IMG/VR virus record: IMGVR_UViG_3300034198_004780
Span: 1-64,000 of that record
Direction: 5' to 3' (one strand)
DNA: 64,000 nt
From: a virus
Made by a program: the position numbers and the translations under genes. This document shows, piece after piece, positions 4,228-53,336 of the stretch. How positions within the stretch are numbered: the stretch's first letter is position 1; each line of letters starts with the position of its first letter. The notes below the pieces were generated by a model that did not search any database, was not told the DNA's origin, and saw nothing but the letters and a program-made list of their open reading frames with translations.

Positions 4228-4451
4228 GGCTTTTACTGCTAGACAGTGAAGGCATAACAAAATACATCCAGGAATTGGATGATGGAGTAAAAGCCTTAAA
4301 AGAAGAACTTTTTAGATTATGCTGGTTTATGAGAGGCGGTGTGACTCTTGAAGAAGCCTACCATATTGATGTTGCTGACCGTCAAATTATTAATAATATT
4401 ATCAAAGACAATTTGGAAACAACAAAAGAAAGCGGACTGCCTTTCTTTTAA
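4221..4451 (+). CDS. gp51-like ORF in the -1 frame, probably expressed as a frameshifted C-terminal extension of gp26
   Basis: Open frame RIRLLLLDSEGITKYIQELDDGVKALKEELFRLCWFMRGGVTLEEAYHIDVADRQIINNIIKDNLETTKESGLPFF* with no well-placed start. Preceded by T TTT TTC and a hairpin. Confidence 0.7.
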   Translation, partial: RIRLLLLDSEGITKYIQELDDGVKALKEELFRLCWFMRGGVTLEEAYHIDVADRQIINNIIKDNLETTKESGLPFF

Positions 4452-5131
4452 ATATCTATCTTTAAAAAACGACTTTCAAATTTGTAGGACTCAGCAATAC
4501 CAACTGCTTTTTCTAACGCACTAACACGCCCAACTAGTTGACTAATTTGATTGCCTCCAGGGGCGCCGCCTGCTGCACCTCCTTGCGCTACACCTGCTGA
4601 ACCACTTGCGGCCTGAGGGCCACCCACAGCAGCTTTTCCAGCTTGATAGCCTTGTTTCATTTTACCTAGTGCACCTCTAATACCGCCACCCACTGCACCA
4701 ATAGCTTTACTAACACCACCAACTGTATTTGCTAAACCAGTAACAGCACCGTTGACGCCTGCTGGTTGAGTTTGTTGTGTAGTATCAGCGGAAGCCGCAG
4801 TAGCAGGTGCGGCTTGTTGTGCTTGATCAGTTGGAACAGTTTGTGGTTGATTAGGATTAGTTGCAGCTGCTTTGTGTACCTGTCCAGCATTAGTTGGAGT
4901 AGTTGTTCCACCTGTACTACTTGGTGTAGTTGCAGGAGTAGTTACTGGAGCAGAACCGGTTACTTGATTTGCCATAGCAGCCATAGAATTGTTACCGGCT
5001 TTTTTTGCTGCATATGCTTGTGCACCTGCTTGCTTTCTAGCTAGCTCTTGAGCTTTATATTGATCAGGAGTTAATCCTGTAGAATCTAATTTTTCTTCTA
5101 TACTTTGTTCAAATAGCTGTGCAATTTTCAT
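4448..5131 (-). CDS. Low-complexity late protein, possible internal head protein
   Basis: Ala/Gly/Thr/Gln-rich. N-terminus MKIAQLFEQSIEE resembles T4 capsid-targeting leaders. TATAAATA on - at 5167-5160. Confidence 0.5.
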   Translation of the reverse strand: MKIAQLFEQSIEEKLDSTGLTPDQYKAQELARKQAGAQAYAAKKAGNNSMAAMANQVTGSAPVTTPATTPSSTGGTTTPTNAGQVHKAAATNPNQPQTVPTDQAQQAAPATAASADTTQQTQPAGVNGAVTGLANTVGGVSKAIGAVGGGIRGALGKMKQGYQAGKAAVGGPQAASGSAGVAQGGAAGGAPGGNQISQLVGRVSALEKAVGIAESYKFESRFLKIDI

Positions 5132-5172
5132 TTTACTCTAATCCTTAATGATTGTATTCTATTTATATGTTT

Positions 5173-5638
5173 AAATGAGCTAAAGCTCATTTGCGTTATC
5201 GCTATCGCTCAACGCATTTTACTTCAAAACAACATTCTAAGAAGATATATGAAACTACAAAGTAGTTTAAACTTTATGTAGATTGTTTGGTCAGACGGAA
5301 CCATTTTATAGGTTCCGTCTTCTTTATGTGAGTTATCTCAGCCAAGACTTTGGGAAGTAGGTATTTTATTATACACCGTATATGCTAAAGGACTCTGTGC
5401 TTTTCCTTCCTACCACGATACGCTTTGTGCGCTCTAGACCTCGTTCCTAGTGTCTAGATGTTTATAGCACGGTGTTTTCATATGCTAACAATTCATATTA
5501 TACCAATACTTAACTCACTTCCGATTTTTCAGGATACTAGGATCTACCTAGGGGAGTGTCTTGATATGTTACGTGTCCGGTTATTCTCCGGTTTTTCCAC
5601 AGCGGTATTACGACCGGCCCGCTAACCTTATGTGTTAG
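5173..5638. ncRNA. Large structured non-coding element (putative ncRNA or origin RNA)
   Basis: ORF-free stretch with at least 8 local hairpins plus nested long-range helices (5328-5335/5511-5518, 5373-5378/5470-5475, 5383-5387/5465-5469). Confidence 0.6.
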
Positions 5639-5639
5639 T

Positions 5640-5909
5640 TTAAAGTGCTTCTTTAGGAAGCCACTTAAGGAATTTATTATTACAAGTTTTACAGATGAGT
5701 TTGCCTGAATGGGGGCCTGAGGATAATTGAATACGATCTAAATCGTGAGTTTGGTGTATGCCTAAAAATTGTTTTTCTTTTTCTGCGTTTGCTTTTTTGT
5801 GTGCCTGTTCTATATGCCATGCCTTATCAAAACCTGTTTTTGGGTTAGTATAGTATTCAGAATTTAAAACACTAGATGTTGGGTGTCTTTCCCAATTTAT
5901 TTTTGTCAT
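5640..5909 (-). CDS. Small hypothetical protein with C-terminal Zn-ribbon-like motif
   Basis: GPHSGKLICKTCNNKFLKWL. ATGA overlap with the upstream gene. Confidence 0.6.
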   Translation of the reverse strand: MTKINWERHPTSSVLNSEYYTNPKTGFDKAWHIEQAHKKANAEKEKQFLGIHQTHDLDRIQLSSGPHSGKLICKTCNNKFLKWLPKEAL

Positions 5910-6334
5910 AGTTTATCTTTAATATGATTCTTGTGTACTCTTACTTGTACATGTCCATTGTAGTAGTCATCTGATTCTAGTACTTTTCGGTCGAATTGTT
6001 CGCGGGCCTCAACGTATGACGTTGCTGATTTTGATTTACAGTAGTAAAGAATCTCACGGGTGAACTTGTCTGTGCCTAATATGTCTATGTCTGCTTGTAA
6101 GTTTGGACTAGAACCCCAGTACTCTTGCCAATCGCTTTCTACTTTGCCTCTGATTTTCTTGCGCTTTTTCTTGCCGTTCTTTAACTTCACAGTCTTGTAG
6201 GTCGTCTTTGAAAACTTTGCTAATTTTTTGCCTATATACTTCCTGCCTGACTCTGTGTTGGTTATAATGTAAACATAGCCAACACAGTCTTCAGGTAATT
6301 CTGTTACCACGATGCCTTGATACGACCAAGTCAT
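5906..6334 (-). CDS. GIY-YIG endonuclease, T4 endonuclease II (DenA)-like
   Basis: GYVYIITN..SGRKYIGKK, ESDWQEYWGSS, F.REIL..C and YYNG motifs. Confidence 0.8.
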   Translation of the reverse strand: MTWSYQGIVVTELPEDCVGYVYIITNTESGRKYIGKKLAKFSKTTYKTVKLKNGKKKRKKIRGKVESDWQEYWGSSPNLQADIDILGTDKFTREILYYCKSKSATSYVEAREQFDRKVLESDDYYNGHVQVRVHKNHIKDKL

Positions 6335-6525
6335 TAAGCTGCTTTGGCTTCCTTGCGGGCATTCTTCTCAGCAGTGATTTCATTGCGGCGAGCTTTAACC
6401 AACTTGCCTAGTTCTGCCAATGCCTTACGAGCACGAGTGCCAGCAGCTGAGTTGCCTGCTGTAAATTTTGTATCTTCAGCGATAAACGCTGCCACTGCTT
6501 CATTGATTGCTTGAGTAGTACTCAT
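6334..6525 (-). CDS. Histone H1-like (Hc1-type) DNA-binding protein
   Basis: GNSAAGTRARKAL.ELGKL.KARR.EI is the Hc1 N-terminal signature. Likely start is the ATG at 6525, not the track's 6564. Confidence 0.75.
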   Translation of the reverse strand: MSTTQAINEAVAAFIAEDTKFTAGNSAAGTRARKALAELGKLVKARRNEITAEKNARKEAKAA

Positions 6526-6773
6526 TCTTTGGTTTCCTTTTTTCCTGGGTGTGCGGCACGCCACTCGACGCTTCGCTCTTTCATTCTCAACTGTGCAATT
6601 TCTTCCATGGCTTTTATGGTCAATCGCATTTCTTTATAAACTTTTCTAAGATCCATTGTTCGTTGAGGACTTTGACGATCCAACCATTTCTCGTGGAGTT
6701 TATAATACTGAGTTACTTTTTCAATAAATTGATCATGTGCTTCAGTATACTTGTTTATAAGATCCGACATCAA
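6522..6773 (-). CDS. Hypothetical protein, possible diverged Hc1 paralog
   Basis: 83 aa, helical, coupled to both neighbours. RK...E....IKA pattern shared with the Hc1 gene. Confidence 0.55.
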   Translation of the reverse strand: MMSDLINKYTEAHDQFIEKVTQYYKLHEKWLDRQSPQRTMDLRKVYKEMRLTIKAMEEIAQLRMKERSVEWRAAHPGKKETKE

Positions 6774-8560
6774 GCCTCTACGTATTCTGGATTTGTATCG
6801 TAGCTGGTAAAACCGTTTTCCTTAACAACACGTAGTACAGTATTAACTCGCCCAATCAACTCATCTTTATGCGAGATTAAGAAAATATTCTTATTGCGCT
6901 CACGTGCCATCTTCTTGAGAACTGACAACCCAGCTTCGACGCCTGCAGCATCCATGCCTGCATCAATAAGCTCGTCAACAAACAACAGATTGATGTGCTG
7001 ATACAAGTTTTCCCAAACATCACGGAAGGCAAAACTCAAAGACAAAATCAATCGATTACGTTCACCGCGTGATAAATTATCAAAGTCCAAATCCTGTCCT
7101 AACTGTGTGATCTCAACATTAAGATCGTTTAAGAATGTCACACGATGCGGCAAGCCCATCTTGTCAATATAATAGCTCAAACGTTTGTTTAGGTAGCTCA
7201 AGTTTTGATCAATAATCTTCTTACGGATAAACGAATCCTTGTTTGTCAACAACTTATACAAGAACTCTTGGTGCTCTTTGACTTTAGTTAGATCATTTAC
7301 TGCGTCCCAAGTAATTTCCTGTAGAGCAGTATGCTTGAGTTCTTCGATCTGTTCATTGTAGGGATTGGCTTCGTTGAACTTGTGCTCAAGACTCTGTTCC
7401 AAGCTGGCAAGATTGTTCTTGTGACCCAATGCTTCTGCCTCAGAGTCATAGAATGTAGTTGGAGGACGGGGCAAGTCGCCCAACTCTAACAGGCCGGTCT
7501 GAACTAGATCTAAATCATTCTTGACCTTATCATAATACGCACCAGCTTCTTCGCGATGCTTATTGGCTTCGACTATTAGTTCGGTGTGCTTGTGATCGTG
7601 TAGCTCTTGCTCGCAAGCGTGACATTTCTTATTTGCTAGACTTTCTAGGTCTTTTCTATACTTGGTCACTGACTTTTCCGCCTGTCCCAACGCAGATTCT
7701 AGCGTAGCACGTTGTTTGTTAAGTTCTTTGATAGTGCTGTTATTGACGTTCCATAGCTTTAGAGCCGCATGATCGGCAAGCTCTGCTTCGATATCCACAT
7801 CACTCAACTGCATAATGCTCTTGCCCAATTTTTCTAAATCATGTTCCTTTTTAGTCTCCCAAGCAGAGCTTTTAATACCTAGACTGTCAATGCTCTTCTG
7901 CACATTTTCGTTGGCAGTCTTGATACCTGCTATCTTAAATTCTTCAGCTTGTATATTGTCTTTGACAGTTTTTATCATAACTTTGAGATTTTCTGCTTTT
8001 TCTGACAATACTGTAATGCCTAACAACTGTTCAATGACCTCACGCTGATCAGCTGCCTTCATTGATAGAAACGGTTCAGTGTAGGTGTTCAAAGCTACTA
8101 GATGCTTGAACATGGTATGACTCATACCCAACAACTGTTCTATGTGTTTCTGTGTCTCACGACTGTCGCCTTGAGCATCATCTTCTTTTTCATCTGCGGC
8201 CTTTTGTTCTTCGTTATTGACATATAGACGCAATAGGTTAGGTTTTCGACCACGCTCAATACGATAGTCAACACCTCCTACTTCAAACTCTACTGTGACT
8301 AACATGGCCTTGGCATTTGTTTTGTTAATCAAGTTCTCTTTGCGGATATTTGTAAGAGCATTACCATACAATGCGTAACTTAGGGCATTGATCATGGTAG
8401 TCTTACCTGTGCCGTTGCGTGATCCGCTGTCGTCACCGCCTAGGTCTAAGTTCTCACCTAAGACTAAAGTCAAGTGCTCTTTGTCGAAGTCTACTGCCTG
8501 TGTTTGATTTCCTACTGACAGGAAATTTTTAACAGTTATATTGCGGATTTTAAATGACAT
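6770..8560 (-). CDS. Recombination nuclease ATPase subunit, gp46/Rad50/SbcC
   Basis: Walker A NGTGKTT, coiled coil with CHAC zinc hook, signature LSRGE, Walker B LFVDE, ISH. Confidence 0.95.
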   Translation of the reverse strand: MSFKIRNITVKNFLSVGNQTQAVDFDKEHLTLVLGENLDLGGDDSGSRNGTGKTTMINALSYALYGNALTNIRKENLINKTNAKAMLVTVEFEVGGVDYRIERGRKPNLLRLYVNNEEQKAADEKEDDAQGDSRETQKHIEQLLGMSHTMFKHLVALNTYTEPFLSMKAADQREVIEQLLGITVLSEKAENLKVMIKTVKDNIQAEEFKIAGIKTANENVQKSIDSLGIKSSAWETKKEHDLEKLGKSIMQLSDVDIEAELADHAALKLWNVNNSTIKELNKQRATLESALGQAEKSVTKYRKDLESLANKKCHACEQELHDHKHTELIVEANKHREEAGAYYDKVKNDLDLVQTGLLELGDLPRPPTTFYDSEAEALGHKNNLASLEQSLEHKFNEANPYNEQIEELKHTALQEITWDAVNDLTKVKEHQEFLYKLLTNKDSFIRKKIIDQNLSYLNKRLSYYIDKMGLPHRVTFLNDLNVEITQLGQDLDFDNLSRGERNRLILSLSFAFRDVWENLYQHINLLFVDELIDAGMDAAGVEAGLSVLKKMARERNKNIFLISHKDELIGRVNTVLRVVKENGFTSYDTNPEYVEA

Positions 8561-8566
8561 AGGTTC

Positions 8567-9592
8567 TTATAAGTTATGGTAAATGTCTAACAGTAATTTT
8601 TTGTCAAACGAATCAGAATCAATATTAACCATTTGGTCTGTTACAATTTGATCAACTGATTCAAACTCTGCGTCTAAACTATCGTCAATATTGCCTTCTA
8701 ACGTGTTCTTTTCTTGTATTAGGCTAATTTCACGAATATCGTATTGTTGGATAAACGTTTCTTTTAAGAAGTTTGCTTCTTCGTAGCTGATGTCAATGTC
8801 AAGATTTACCTTCAAATACATCTTTGACTTCATGATGTCGTCTTTCTGATCAATCAGTGTTGACAGTTTAACGTTTCTGTACTTGGGTGCATCTGGCCAA
8901 GATTTATATTCAGGCTTACCACCCCAATCCATATACATCATTCCGCGATCATCGTCCCATACGTCTGCAAAGTTATGCGGAAAAGCATTGCCAATATAAA
9001 CAACATTGCCGTTGTGCTGACGTTTGTGGAAGTGTCCTGAGAATACATATTCTGGACTGGCTAGATCACTTCGTTGAATCTCACCGTGATCTGGCATTTG
9101 CACCATGGCGTTCATGTAAAAGCTAGGAAGTTCAAAGTGACCAAATACATATCGGCTCTTTAATTCTTTCATCTTTTTCCATTCATCACCTACTAACCAA
9201 GGAACCAGCGTGACGTCGCCAATCGTAGTTACATGATCCACAACGGTTACACCGGGAATATGTCGACCGAACATTGAGCTATGAACGTCACGCTTGTCTT
9301 TATAGAACAGATCATGGTTACCTGGAAACCAATAGAACTGTTCAAATGCCGCGCCTAGCTTCTCTAGACAGCGCAAACTGGTATCCAAGGTAATTAGGTT
9401 GATACTATTTCTATTGTGATGCCAATCACCTAGAAAGATACAGGTCTCCGCGCCTTCTGTTTTGGCCTCAGCAATAAACCAATCAACAAAATCTTCACAG
9501 TCTTGATTGTGTGTCAGGCTGTTGGACTTTAGGCCATAATGTATGTCGGTAAAACATGCAACTCTCTTGAATAGATTGCTCATTGATATCAT
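8567..9592 (-). CDS. Recombination nuclease, gp47/Mre11/SbcD
   Basis: Metallophosphoesterase motifs DIH, GD, GNHD, GH, SGHFH. Start may be the ATG at 9583. Confidence 0.95.
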   Translation of the reverse strand: MISMSNLFKRVACFTDIHYGLKSNSLTHNQDCEDFVDWFIAEAKTEGAETCIFLGDWHHNRNSINLITLDTSLRCLEKLGAAFEQFYWFPGNHDLFYKDKRDVHSSMFGRHIPGVTVVDHVTTIGDVTLVPWLVGDEWKKMKELKSRYVFGHFELPSFYMNAMVQMPDHGEIQRSDLASPEYVFSGHFHKRQHNGNVVYIGNAFPHNFADVWDDDRGMMYMDWGGKPEYKSWPDAPKYRNVKLSTLIDQKDDIMKSKMYLKVNLDIDISYEEANFLKETFIQQYDIREISLIQEKNTLEGNIDDSLDAEFESVDQIVTDQMVNIDSDSFDKKLLLDIYHNL

Positions 9593-44944: not shown

Positions 44945-45012
44945 TCGCTAGTGTCTACAGCTACAATAATAGCAACTAGAGCAATCAAGATCAAAGCAAT
45001 CCACATATCCAT
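44941..45012 (-). CDS. 23-aa single-pass membrane peptide (not in the ORF track)
   Basis: MDMWIALILIALVAIIVAVDTSE*, with TAATG and ATGA overlaps at its ends. Confidence 0.5.
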   Translation of the reverse strand: MDMWIALILIALVAIIVAVDTSE

Positions 45013-45179
45013 TAGTAATTTTCTTTAACCAAATAGTATTGTGGCTTTGGATATTTCTCTAAAATTTCTTCGCTTTTGATAAATGCGTTCATAACTGGAG
45101 CAGTAAAAAACATTTTATTGAGTACTGGTTTATGTGTTTCTGAATCGATCACGCTTAGATACCATGATTTTACAGCCAT
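45012..45179 (-). CDS. 55-aa hypothetical protein (not in the ORF track)
   Basis: MAVKSWYLSVIDSETHKPVLNKMFF...YYLVKENY*, with a purine-rich RBS. Confidence 0.6.
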   Translation of the reverse strand: MAVKSWYLSVIDSETHKPVLNKMFFTAPVMNAFIKSEEILEKYPKPQYYLVKENY

Positions 45180-45214
45180 ATTATATTCTCTTTTCTTTTA
45201 TTGTGTGTTAAGTG

Positions 45215-45235
45215 AAAAAGGACCCCGTAGGGTCC
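45215..45235 (-). terminator. Intrinsic terminator after the MoxR gene
   Basis: GGACCC-TACG-GGGTCC-TTTTT on the - strand (cUACGg tetraloop). Confidence 0.85.
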
Positions 45236-45239
45236 AATT

Positions 45240-52805: not shown

Positions 52806-53213
52806 TTAATCTGCTCGATAGTTCGGCGATTTATAGTTTCCCTTCCCCGGGATCGTATTGCGGACACCACCAATCGGATCTTCAACATCACCCTTTCTGC
52901 GAGGGATAAGATGGATATGGGGCCATCCAACAGTTTGACCAGCAGTTTCGCCTTGATTAAGTCCAACATTGAAACCGTCCCATTCTCCGGCCGCCACCAT
53001 TCTTTTACCTTCTCTAACAGCATCTTCAAATGCATCATTTAACAACTCCATTGAATTATATTTAGGTACGAATAATAAATGTCCAGGGGTACAGGGATAT
53101 TTGTCATAATACACTACAACATGAAAATCTTCACGAAACACATTATCCCACGGTGCGCTACTTTCCTCTAGCGTATCTGGACCGTCAAATATCTTATTGT
53201 TCATTTTGTCCAC
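52806..53213 (-). CDS. HIT-family nucleotide hydrolase
   Basis: D.YP.TPGHLL.VPK, GFNVG.N.G..AGQTV..PHIHLIPR. Confidence 0.92.
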   Translation of the reverse strand: MDKMNNKIFDGPDTLEESSAPWDNVFREDFHVVVYYDKYPCTPGHLLFVPKYNSMELLNDAFEDAVREGKRMVAAGEWDGFNVGLNQGETAGQTVGWPHIHLIPRRKGDVEDPIGGVRNTIPGKGNYKSPNYRAD

Positions 53214-53250
53214 CTTAATTTACTTTATTATTACATAGAACTAAAAACAA

Positions 53251-53336
53251 GTCAAATATATTGATAAATAAAAGTGCCCCTCGCGATGCGCCAACATCCA
53301 GGAGCTCTAACAGTTTATAAGGAACTATCAGCAATG
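53251..53336 (+). repeat. Conserved endonuclease leader, copy 2
   Basis: Near-identical to 48867-48952, with a compensatory change in one hairpin. Confidence 0.9.

What the first reader, a model, noticed from the sequence alone, without database searches (positions are those of the whole stretch)
5173..5638. ~470-nt ornate structured non-coding element: candidate novel large ncRNA or origin-priming RNA
Seen: the only long ORF-free gap in the window, and almost entirely paired. Local stems: 5173-5180/5185-5192, 5192-5197/5211-5216, 5252-5258/5262-5268, 5293-5302/5311-5320 (10 bp perfect), 5433-5439/5452-5458, 5529-5538/5555-5564, 5577-5580/5588-5591, 5602-5605/5619-5622, 5622-5626/5634-5638. 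Nested long-range helices: GTGAGTTA/TAACTCAC (5328/5511), ACACCG/CGGTGT (5373/5470), TGCTA/TAGCA (5383/5465). Crossing or competing pairs: GTAGG/CCTAC (5357/5409), GGAAGT/ACTTCC (5353/5517). The strand is unresolved: A-rich junctions and operon direction favour -, while G-U pairs in the 5529 stem favour +. I could not match it to tmRNA, RNase P or an intron by eye. Inference: either a GOLLD/ROOL-class phage RNA, or an R-loop primer RNA at a replication origin (GAGCGATAGCGA in the distal hairpin resembles primosome-assembly signals, and the phage encodes RNase H).
Basis: partly seen in the sequence, partly recalled or inferred. Interest (0 to 1): 0.8.

Follow-up and report, generated by a model that had tools for sequence, protein, structure and literature searches.

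The report
Large knotted twin-box phage RNA gene
The gene-free gap holds a real gene for a folded, knotted non-coding RNA of about 465 bases that many uncultured water phages share, that is in no RNA catalogue, that carries one short word twice, and whose job is unknown.

Summary
Window 5132-5639 is the longest ORF-free stretch and is a conserved structured RNA gene. It is read on the MINUS strand, about 5651 to 5170.

Relatives stand in at least 100 IMG/VR viral contigs. They are 60-84% identical to the window copy.

An 86-pair model with four pseudoknots is 98.5% paired in 59 sequences. Slid controls give 30-40%. 47 pairs change on both sides, and 0 of 500 shuffles reach the observed values. 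There are 444 G-U cells against 21 A-C cells, which fixes the strand.

No Rfam family matches, including GOLLD, ROOL and Polynucleobacter-1.

One 6-8-nt word (ACAUAAAG here) occurs twice, 48-62 nt apart, around a near-invariant hairpin, in 79 of 79 loci. The word differs between lineages but the two copies stay alike.

The neighbouring GIY-YIG nuclease is not needed. It is absent from 4 of 5 complete small phages that carry the RNA.

The origin or primer reading and the coding reading are not supported. The function is unknown. My best guess is a trans-acting scaffold that shows two identical words to one reader.

This scan has met the same family many times on other DNA.

The parts
5170..5651 (-). 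Whole non-coding RNA gene. The ends are approximate and not mapped. The conserved core is 5270-5638. The conserved leader 5639-5651 overlaps the last codons of the 89-aa ORF.
   Evidence: 74-76% nucleotide identity in 6 syntenic loci. nhmmer gave 82 full-length hits. The upstream leader word is conserved. The 3' hairpins are conserved.
5633..5638 (-). 5' end word CUAACA. It pairs with UGUUAG (5485-5490) in the loop of hairpin P8 (pseudoknot 1).
   Evidence: helix 1: 6 pairs, 100% paired, 2 with changes on both sides. Coordinates.
5601..5623 (-). Hairpin P2 (AGCGG / CCGCU)
   Evidence: helix 2: 3 of 5 pairs change on both sides (GC<->CG).
5596..5600 (-). GUGGA, the 5' strand of the long-range closing helix P3. 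It pairs with UCUAC at 5278-5282, which overlaps box 2 (5272-5279) by two bases.
   Evidence: helix 3: 97.6% paired, G-U/G-C and U-A/U-G changes only, no double changes.
5577..5591 (-). Hairpin P4
   Evidence: helix 4: 4 of 4 pairs change on both sides.
5500..5567 (-). P5 domain. It holds the closing stem 5561-5567/5500-5506, P5a 5554-5557/5513-5516, P6 5547-5551/5537-5541 and P6b 5532-5534/5520-5522. Hairpin P7 of the relatives is missing in this copy.
   Evidence: helices 5-9. One search shows no window letters in the P7 columns. L025 has the same short form.
5480..5498 (-). Hairpin P8. Its loop holds the partner of the 5' end.
   Evidence: helix 10: 4 of 5 pairs change on both sides.
5465..5475 (-). 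5' strand of long-range helix P13 (ACACCGUGCUA). It pairs with 5373-5387.
   Evidence: helix 11 for the upper part. for the lower part: 58 of 59 keep 5 bp or more, mean 5.88 against 4.94 +/- 0.09 for dealt-out partners.
5433..5458 (-). Hairpin P9 with the invariant 14-nt loop CACUAGGAACGAGG (5439-5452)
   Evidence: helix 12: 6 of 6 pairs change on both sides. The loop is invariant in 59 of 59 sequences. The relatives were fetched with this very word, so that count is not an independent test.
5421..5431 (-). Short form of the variable hairpin P10
   Evidence: helix 14: 3 of 3 pairs change on both sides. Its length varies widely among relatives.
5389..5416 (-). Compact pseudoknot core. S1 is 5414-5416/5397-5399. 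S2 is 5404-5407/5389-5392. GUAGG (5409-5413) pairs with CCUAC (5357-5361).
   Evidence: columns 335-351 and 334-352 are among the top MI pairs. helices 15-17: 3, 3 and 2 pairs change on both sides.
5343..5347 (-). UCUUG, which pairs with CGAGG (5439-5443) of the P9 loop (pseudoknot)
   Evidence: helix 13: 97.6% paired. Column 251-410 is G-U in 34 and G-C in 22 sequences. There are no double changes, so support is moderate.
5322..5329 (-). Box 1: ACAUAAAG
5293..5320 (-). Hairpin P14 between the boxes. Its 3' arm and the following bases (GGUUCCGUCUGAC) are near-invariant.
   Evidence: helix 18: 99.8% paired, 3 pairs with G-U changes. Conservation.
5272..5279 (-). Box 2: ACAUAAAG, identical to box 1
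5252..5268 (-). Hairpin just after box 2
   Evidence: Present in the window fold. 34 of 55 distinct tails of relatives hold CUUCG, and 23 of 55 fold to a hairpin. The MAFFT columns are unreliable here.
5192..5216 (-). Hairpin with the conserved loop region GAGCGAUAGCGA. I read it as tandem G-A pairs, G-C and C-G pairs, and a GNNA loop.
   Evidence: the motif is in 53 of 79 loci, with different, complementary flanking stems.
5173..5192 (-). Terminator-like palindromic hairpin, the likely 3' end
   Evidence: The same hairpin type follows the GAGCG hairpin in L099 and L102. It was not caught by the consensus terminator scan.
5160..5167 (-). TATAAATA word before the 227-aa gene. It is not part of the RNA. 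I recall it, from no call, as the T4-type late promoter consensus.
   Evidence: Sequence. A like word stands at the same place in 24 of 79 loci (last column).
5640..6334 (-). Upstream neighbours, not part of the RNA: the 89-aa ORF (5640-5909) and the 142-aa GIY-YIG domain protein (5906-6334).

Best explanation
The gap is a stand-alone gene for a trans-acting, compactly folded non-coding RNA of about 465 nt on the minus strand.

Shown:
- It is conserved in at least 100 viral contigs.
- Its fold is kept by compensatory changes. The fold has a closing helix between the 5' region and box 2, a peripheral P5 domain, a P13-enclosed core, and four pseudoknots.
- Two identical single-stranded 8-nt words (ACAUAAAG) flank a near-invariant hairpin.
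- Two conserved hairpins follow at the 3' end.

Inferred:
- It is transcribed in the direction of the gp46/gp47 - GIY-YIG - 89-aa gene row and ends at the hairpin 5173-5192.
- It acts as a scaffold, either as an RNP or like a ribozyme. The scaffold holds out the two identical words to one common reader.
- The nuclease gene and the RNA gene are neighbours. They are not a two-part system.

Real RNA gene on the minus strand: about 0.95. The scaffold-with-common-reader mechanism: about 0.3.
For: Conservation and fold:
- 74-76% identity over 399-528 nt in 6 syntenic loci.
- RNAalifold predicts 62 pairs, 33 of them with changes on both sides.
- My 86-pair model is 98.5% paired against 30-40% when partners are slid. 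47 pairs change on both sides, against 12 or fewer when slid and 24.9 +/- 2.2 when shuffled. 0 of 500 shuffles reach the observed values.
- Strand: 444 G-U cells against 21 A-C cells, and 98.5% against 90.1% paired.

Independent gene:
- The downstream genes differ between loci and often face the other way.
- The upstream gene is GIY-YIG, the 89-aa ORF, or an unrelated 150-210-aa ORF.
- In ~30-kb phages the RNA has its own upstream TATAAATA- or CTAAATA-like word and a ~65-nt leader.

Twin words:
- 59 of 59 aligned sequences and 79 of 79 loci hold the same word twice.
- There are 9 different words in the main set. Further words are ACAUGAG and GGUAAU(R)UCA in divergent loci.

Nuclease not needed:
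- 4 of 5 complete or near-complete ~30-kb carriers have no GIY-YIG or 89-aa homolog.
- 492 cultured phage records have the GIY-YIG homolog. 3 of 3 that I looked at have no RNA after it.
Against: - There is no transcript evidence of any kind, so the ends are inferred.
- No reader of the boxes was found. There is no reverse-complement word at a constant place within +/-3.5 kb. No alignment column covaries with the boxes beyond the other box and phylogenetic background. The word is not enriched genome-wide in 4 of 5 small genomes.
- The identity of the boxes could come from a copying or processing mechanism instead of a shared reader.
- Three helices (P3, the P9-loop pseudoknot and P14) rest on conservation and G-U changes only.
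- The window copy lacks hairpin P7. I cannot exclude that this copy is impaired.
Confidence: 0.55

Rival explanations
1. The RNA is a precursor. It is cut at the same place in both boxes, by itself or by one endonuclease, and releases or circularises the near-invariant ~50-nt hairpin RNA between them. The large fold is then the processing scaffold.
For: - Identical words at both borders of a conserved unit are what one cutting site used twice would need.
- The unit between the boxes is the most conserved hairpin of the RNA.
- The box spacing is narrow, 48-62 nt.
Against: - No known self-cleaving motif scores.
- No guide that covaries with the boxes was found.
- No reads were available to show ends (no RNA holder listed).
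Confidence: 0.08
2. The RNA is the specificity partner or guide of the neighbouring nuclease-only GIY-YIG protein, with or without the 89-aa protein.
For: - The GIY-YIG gene lies within 3.5 kb in 63 of 79 loci: upstream in 58 and downstream in 5.
- It has no DNA-binding domain by Pfam.
- The RNA starts within a few bases of the upstream stop codon in most loci.
Against: - 4 of 5 complete ~30-kb carriers of the RNA lack the protein altogether.
- The protein is a common gene of cultured T4-like phages, found in 492 records. It has no RNA behind it in 3 of 3 examined.
- The 89-aa ORF is present in only 33 of 79 loci.
Confidence: 0.04
3. The region is a replication origin, and its transcript is an R-loop primer.
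For: - It is a long non-coding stretch beside recombination genes gp46/gp47.
- It is rich in hairpins.
- AGGCA words are repeated upstream in the small phages.
Against: - Compensatory and G-U-tolerant changes show selection on a folded RNA of one strand.
- Cumulative GC skew does not turn here.
- The same RNA lies at the end of the tail and lysis module in ~30-kb phages.
- The supposed primosome word is the loop of a covarying hairpin.
Confidence: 0.03
4. It is a long form of the catalogued Polynucleobacter-1 motif (Rfam RF01718), as earlier notes of this scan say of sister subfamilies.
For: - Earlier notes say this, unchecked by me on their DNA.
- Weinberg 2010 lists the motif from Burkholderiales and fresh water/estuary (one table row seen). 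One search lists freshwater and estuary DNA holders of small shares of the stretch, which I did not lay.
- The family is modular. Divergent loci keep the 3' two-thirds but carry another 5' domain.
Against: - RF01718 gives no match in the window region at E<=10 or in the window's whole record at E<=10.
- It matches 0 of 50 other records that carry the RNA at E<=1.
- It matches none of 19 divergent loci at the gathering score.
- It does not match the other-5'-domain locus L070 at E<=10.
Confidence: 0.12
5. It is a cis-acting leader or trailer of a neighbouring gene, or a small protein gene (the 55-aa ORF 5458-5625 on the plus strand).
For: - The RNA abuts the stop codon of the upstream ORF.
- Antisense frames are often open for 43-90 codons.
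Against: - The neighbours on both sides change between loci.
- Variability by codon position is flat: 0.110, 0.107 and 0.096.
- The length of the stretch is not kept modulo 3 (25, 24 and 10 sequences).
- The frame stays open in only 3 of 59 sequences.
Confidence: 0.02

Closest known systems
GOLLD and ROOL large ornate RNAs (Rfam RF01998, RF03087). From bioRxiv 10.1101/2024.12.08.627333 I saw only the search listing and the start of the abstract.
   Same: - They are large, intricately folded non-coding RNAs.
- They were found by comparative genomics.
- No function is known.
- From recall, they are often carried by phages or prophages.
   Different: - Neither model matches.
- This RNA is smaller, about 465 nt.
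- It has its own architecture.
- It has two identical co-changing words, which I do not know from those families.
- Nothing is known here about oligomers.
Polynucleobacter-1 RNA motif (Rfam RF01718; Weinberg et al. 2010, PMC2864571; I saw one table row)
   Same: - It is an orphan motif listed from Burkholderiales and fresh water/estuary.
- Earlier notes of this scan say it forms the first third of sister subfamilies of this RNA.
   Different: - The model has 141 positions.
- It matches none of the 51 records tested here.
- It does not match the alternative 5' domain.
- The conserved core described here (P9 loop, pseudoknots, boxes) is not catalogued.
HEARO / omega-RNA type nuclease-associated RNAs (Rfam RF02033, named from recall)
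   Same: A large structured RNA lies directly beside a small nuclease gene.
   Different: - No model match.
- The RNA exists without the nuclease, and the nuclease exists without the RNA.
- No transposon ends were seen.
Free-standing Seg-type GIY-YIG genes of T4 beside conserved genes (recalled textbook knowledge, no call)
   Same: The upstream neighbour matches Pfam SegE_GIY-YIG at 1.7e-30. It sits beside a highly conserved RNA gene.
   Different: - The protein has only the nuclease domain (142 aa).
- It is a widely kept gene of cultured T4-like phages, not a sporadic insert.
- Homing was not tested.

Membership tests
Any Rfam 15 family (includes GOLLD RF01998, ROOL RF03087, group I intron, RNase P, tmRNA, 6S, HEARO) | Covariance-model score at or above the family's gathering score | tested here: not met
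   0 matches in the 64-kb window at gathering. At E<=10 on 5050-5750 there were only 4 chance-level hits of 9.7-16.9 bits, against cut-offs of 38-102 bits. ARAGORN found no tRNA or tmRNA.
Polynucleobacter-1 (RF01718) | Match to the 141-position covariance model (gathering score 37 bits) | tested here: not met
   No match on 5050-5750 at E<=10. 0 of 1 (own record, E<=10). 0 of 50 carrier records (E<=1). 0 of 19 divergent loci at gathering. None in L070 1100-1750 at E<=10.
Polynucleobacter-1 (RF01718) | Shared helices with the Rfam seed structure | not testable with these tools
   Neither the seed alignment nor a member sequence was at hand. The paper's supplements are closed.
Twin-box phage RNA (working name from earlier notes of this scan; uncatalogued) | Hairpin with the invariant loop CACUAGGAACGAGG and a covarying stem | tested here: met
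   Window 5433-5458. 6 of 6 stem pairs change on both sides.
Twin-box phage RNA (working name) | Pseudoknotted core (S1/S2, GUAGG-CCUAC) | tested here: met
   helices 15-17. Window coordinates.
Twin-box phage RNA (working name) | The same short word twice, flanking the GGUUCCGUCUGAC hairpin | tested here: met
   ACAUAAAG at 5322-5329 and 5272-5279. 79 of 79 loci show a twin word.
Twin-box phage RNA (working name) | 3' hairpin with the GAGCG..GCGA loop region | tested here: met
   Window 5192-5216. 53 of 79 loci.
Replication origin with primer RNA | Strand-compositional turn at the site | tested here: not met
   Cumulative GC skew falls steadily through 1-12 kb with no extremum at 5.4 kb. This is a weak test for a phage that may have several origins.
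Replication origin with primer RNA | Initiation of DNA synthesis at the site | not testable with these tools
   This needs coverage data from early infection or replication-intermediate mapping.
Protein-coding gene (55-aa ORF 5458-5625, plus strand) | Frame kept open, and third-position excess of change among homologs | tested here: not met
   The frame is open in 3 of 59. Variability is 0.110, 0.107 and 0.096 by codon position.

The most novel reading that the evidence does not exclude
The two identical, lineage-specific words are programmable recognition elements. Held at fixed places by the knotted scaffold, they base-pair with the same 7-8-nt sequence twice. The targets could be two copies of one target, or the two strands of a symmetric site, in host or rival-phage nucleic acid.

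The RNA would then be a portable, sequence-directed effector or decoy. It works without a dedicated phage protein, and unrelated phages exchange it.

My evidence does not exclude this:
- The words change between lineages while the scaffold stays.
- No partner lies in cis.
- The RNA occurs in two unrelated phage types.

Nothing yet shows a target.
Probability: 0.07. Interest if true: 0.9.

Novelty: new member of a known kind. Interest (0 to 1): 0.68.

Why it matters
Large, strongly conserved, multiply knotted RNAs are rare, and they have in the past turned out to be ribozymes or parts of basic machines.

- This RNA is carried by at least a hundred uncultured water phages of two unrelated types: T4-like giants of about 330 kb and phages of about 30 kb.
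- It was found in none of 185,579 prokaryote species genomes with the two word patterns I scanned.
- It is in no catalogue.
- Its two words change between lineages yet stay identical within a genome. No ordinary base-pairing rule explains this pattern. It points to a reader or a copying step that is still to be found.

Because the RNA seems to need no dedicated phage protein, it can be tested by expressing it alone.

Tried and rejected
1. Rfam at gathering and at E<=10 on the window, on 19 divergent loci and on L070 gave nothing relevant.

2. RF01718 searched over the window's own record and 50 carrier records gave nothing. I could not reproduce the link stated in earlier notes.

3. blastn 'distant' of 5100-5700 against 50,697 phage records found no match. 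No cultured relative of this subfamily was found.

4. The look-up of sequencing runs: no RNA holder listed. 20 rows hold the stretch or part of it as DNA, and one of them may be the source sample. I did not lay reads, since contigs of DNA runs cannot show a transcript.

5. Anti-box search. The exact reverse complement of each locus's own word appears within +/-3.5 kb only at scattered places. G-U-tolerant partners were tried by eye only. The mutual-information partners of the box columns are the other box plus hairpin columns that follow phylogeny.

6. Box word as a genome-wide signal, tested in 5 small genomes.
   - G004 and G010 have only the 2 RNA copies.
   - G031 and G044 each have 1 extra copy.
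   - G012 has 6 sense copies against 0.92 expected, two of them just before start codons.
   - The pattern is not consistent across genomes.

7. Template-jumping reverse transcription between the boxes. No RVT_1 match in 0 of 5 complete or near-complete carriers. A host enzyme is not excluded.

8. Genome-contig scans found 0 hits and then 1 hit. The hit (L138, a MAG contig) shares nothing beyond the pattern itself and is G+C-rich, so I count it as chance.

9. Extended repeat around the boxes. The 22 nt before box 1 and before box 2 align only slightly better than shuffles (-1.87 against -4.69, sd 2.56).

10. A tmRNA-like or small ORF between the boxes was considered from the spacing. The spacing (48-62 nt) is not kept modulo 3, so I rejected it.

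11. Literature.
   - 'Polynucleobacter-1' occurs in one paper of the library.
   - A search on structured RNA, bacteriophage, covariation and metagenomes listed 73 papers.
   - In Fremin et al. 2023 (PMC10690425) I saw passages only. Its candidates are 29-151 bases long and their list is in supplements that I could not open, so pieces of this RNA may be among them.
   - In bioRxiv 10.64898/2026.09.22.753630 I saw passages only. It does not mention GIY-YIG.
   - My statement that the RNA is not described in print rests only.
Full report
WHERE IT LIES. The window is the first 64 kb of an 88,726-base IMG/VR virus record that CheckV rates 25% complete. A relative's contig has 331,654 bases and is rated 95% complete. 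This is therefore a T4-like giant phage.

On the minus strand the gene row runs as follows:
- gp47-like phosphoesterase (8567-9592)
- gp46-like SMC/AAA protein (6770-8560)
- an 83-aa ORF
- a 76-aa Hc1-like protein
- a 142-aa SegE-type GIY-YIG domain protein (5906-6334, Pfam 1.7e-30)
- an 89-aa ORF with no family (5640-5909)
- the gap 5132-5639
- a 227-aa low-complexity protein (4448-5131)

The gap is the longest ORF-free stretch of the window: 508 nt, against 295, 235 and 220 nt for the next three.

IS IT MORE THAN CHANCE. Both strands fold better than all 100 dinucleotide shuffles (z -3.23 and -3.33). That alone decides nothing, so I looked for relatives.

- The 89-aa protein led to 6 viral loci. 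In these the stretch behind the gene is 74-76% identical to the gap over 399-528 nt. That is as conserved as the flanking protein.
- A profile of the core then gave 108 hits, 82 of them full length.
- After removing identical copies, 58 sequences plus the window were aligned. Their identity to the window is 0.60-0.84, median 0.77.

STRUCTURE. RNAalifold predicted 62 pairs, 33 with changes on both sides. I added helices from mutual information and from a helix scan, then counted an 86-pair, 18-helix model with four crossing helices:
- 98.5% of 5034 cells are standard pairs, against 30.1-39.6% when the partners are slid by 1-3 columns.
- 47 pairs change on both sides, against 7-12 when slid and 24.9 +/- 2.2 in shuffles.
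- The covariation score is 0.301 against 0.127.
- 0 of 500 shuffles reach any observed value.

The lower part of the long-range helix P13 is misaligned by MAFFT, so I tested it apart. 58 of 59 sequences keep 5 or more contiguous pairs, in at least 10 sequence variants. The mean is 5.88 against 4.94 +/- 0.09 when the 3' strands are dealt out among sequences.

Three helices rest on conservation and G-U/G-C or A-U/G-U changes only, and are less sure: P3, the P9-loop pseudoknot, and P14.

STRAND. In the model, 444 cells are G-U and 21 are A-C. Read as plus-strand RNA, the model falls to 90.1% paired. The RNA is therefore on the minus strand, in the direction of the gene row.

ANATOMY IN THE WINDOW, from 5' to 3' on the minus strand:
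- A conserved leader (5651-5639) overlaps the last codons of the 89-aa ORF.
- CUAACA (5638-5633) pairs into the loop of P8.
- Then come P2, the 5' strand of the closing helix P3, and P4.
- The P5 domain follows. In this copy it lacks hairpin P7; L025 has the same short form.
- Then come P8 and the 5' strand of P13.
- P9 carries its invariant 14-nt loop, and P10 follows.
- A compact pseudoknot follows (S1/S2). Its GUAGG pairs with CCUAC beyond P13.
- A strand then pairs with the P9 loop.
- Next are box 1 (5329-5322), the near-invariant hairpin P14, and box 2 (5279-5272). The 3' strand of the closing helix P3 (5282-5278) overlaps the start of box 2 by two bases.
- A small hairpin follows (5268-5252).
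- Next is a hairpin whose loop region GAGCGAUAGCGA is kept in 53 of 79 loci while its stem changes in a complementary way.
- A palindromic, terminator-like hairpin (5192-5173) closes the RNA.
- Behind it stands a TATAAATA word (recalled as the T4-type late promoter) before the 227-aa gene.

THE TWIN BOXES. Earlier notes of this scan said that the family carries one 7-letter word twice, and I checked this. The two strongest identity couplings in the alignment lie between the two boxes.
- In 59 of 59 sequences the two sites share a word of 6-8 nt: ACAUGAA in 35, ACAUAAAG in 8 (the window among them), ACAUGA in 4, GCAUAAU in 4, ACAGAAAG in 3, and four more words.
- In 79 of 79 distinct loci the word stands twice, 48-62 nt apart.
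- Divergent loci carry ACAUGAG or GGUAAU(R)UCA twice.

So the word drifts between lineages while the two copies stay alike. I found no partner for it:
- No reverse complement stands at a constant place within +/-3.5 kb.
- No column covaries with the boxes apart from the other box.
- The word is enriched genome-wide in only 1 of 5 small genomes.
- No phage reverse transcriptase is present that could jump between the boxes (0 of 5).

CONTEXT AND THE NUCLEASE. Among 79 distinct loci, the GIY-YIG gene lies upstream in 58, downstream in 5, and is not nearby in 16. The 89-aa ORF is present in 33. The downstream genes vary and often face the other way.

A second group of carriers are phages of about 30 kb, rated 98-100% complete, two of them with terminal repeats. 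In G004 I saw a tape-measure-like protein, tail-fibre-like proteins, a terminase-like protein, a portal-like protein and a capsid-like protein. I named these by eye from the translations, without a family search. In these phages the RNA follows the tail-fibre and small-protein genes and has its own TATAAATA- or CTAAATA-like word plus a ~65-nt leader with 3-4 AGGCA repeats.

Four of the five small genomes have no homolog of the GIY-YIG or the 89-aa protein. Conversely, the GIY-YIG protein has homologs in 492 cultured phage records: Methylophilales phage Melnitz at 52% identity, and hundreds of cyanophages, often labelled 'NAD synthetase'. Melnitz-3, S-SSM7 and phiN3 have no such RNA behind the gene. 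The RNA and the nuclease are therefore separable, and the guide-RNA reading is unlikely.

WHAT IT IS NOT.
- It is not coding. The 55-aa plus-strand ORF shows no codon-position pattern and stays open in 3 of 59 sequences.
- It is not a cis element of a fixed neighbour.
- It does not look like an origin. Selection acts on RNA pairs, the skew does not turn, and the supposed primosome word is a hairpin loop.
- It is in no Rfam family.
- It is not Polynucleobacter-1 by model score in 51 records, nor in the alternative 5' domain.
- It was not found in 185,579 prokaryote species genomes with the two patterns scanned. These gave 0 hits and 1 chance hit.
- It was not found in 50,697 phage records by blastn.

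The family is modular. L070-, L069-, L093-, L099- and L071-type loci keep the 3' two-thirds from P9 on, but have another 5' domain.

HOW IT MOST LIKELY WORKS. Shown: this is an independently conserved, compact, multiply knotted RNA with many invariant unpaired purine-rich stretches, exchanged between unrelated phage types.

Inferred: it is a trans-acting scaffold (an RNP or something like a ribozyme). Its two helix-adjacent single strands show the same word to one reader. I give this about 0.3.

The main rival is processing at both boxes to free the invariant hairpin (0.08). The rest of the probability lies with mechanisms I cannot name.

KNOWN OR NEW. In kind, it belongs with the large ornate orphan RNAs of phages such as GOLLD and ROOL, but it is a member of neither. 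The claimed tie to the orphan motif Polynucleobacter-1 could not be reproduced on this subfamily.

I found no description in print. My literature checks were:
- searches
- passages of PMC10690425
- passages of the 2026 preprint
- one table row of PMC2864571
Supplements were closed, so short pieces of the RNA may be listed there.

The scan itself has reported the same family on many other genomes. This window adds a P7-less variant with the word ACAUAAAG.

VERDICT. This is a real feature on the minus strand: a new member of the class of large orphan phage RNAs. Its function is unknown, and the twin-box rule is the unexplained and most interesting part.

Noticed in passing
window 5640-5909 (-): The 89-aa ORF has no Pfam family. 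It is 64-76% identical in 6 viral loci, and its C-terminus holds a CxxC pair. Its last codons overlap the conserved leader of the RNA. It is present in only 33 of 79 loci, always directly before the RNA.
   Followed up: partly
window 5906-6334 (-): The 142-aa nuclease-only GIY-YIG protein has homologs in 492 cultured phage records, many labelled 'NAD synthetase'. That label looks like a carried-over mis-annotation.
   Followed up: partly
L013, L074, L121, L111, L009, L125, L051: the 110 nt before the RNA: In the ~30-kb phages a TATAAATA- or CTAAATA-like word is followed by GACAGGCA and a ~65-nt leader with 3-4 AGGCA/GGCA repeats. One such word stands 7-8 nt before CUAACAC in most loci. The window has AAGCA there.
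   Followed up: no
G012, G004, G031, G044, G010 (loci L128-L137): The same RNA stands in complete phages of about 30 kb that share almost nothing else with the T4-like giants. This suggests the RNA gene moves between phage types.
   Followed up: partly
G012 (L128) 10675 and 10963, in the orientation: In this one small phage the box word ACAGAAAG occurs 6 times on the sense strand, against 0.92 expected. Two copies lie 8-12 nt before start codons of small genes just downstream of the RNA.
   Followed up: partly
window 5500-5567 (-): The window copy lacks hairpin P7, about 24 nt. P7 is present, with 3 of its 4 pairs changing on both sides, in the other sequences of the main set (3 divergent rows differ or are gapped there). 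The partial locus L025 has the same short form.
   Followed up: partly
L069 1-1174: A cluster of six tRNA genes lies about 4.4 kb from the RNA in one divergent carrier.
   Followed up: no
window 6334-6564 (-): A 76-aa protein matches the chlamydial histone-like Hc1 family (Pfam 1.3e-13). It recurs between gp46 and the GIY-YIG gene in many relatives, as family F10.
   Followed up: no
window 4228-4447, 44945-45239, 53039-53273: Three further ORF-free stretches of 220-295 nt. I did not examine them.
   Followed up: no
window 4448-5131 (-): The 227-aa protein is rich in A, G, T and Q, has no Pfam family, and follows a TATAAATA word. Only its C-terminal 105 residues have a relative (67% identity) in one viral contig.
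   Followed up: no
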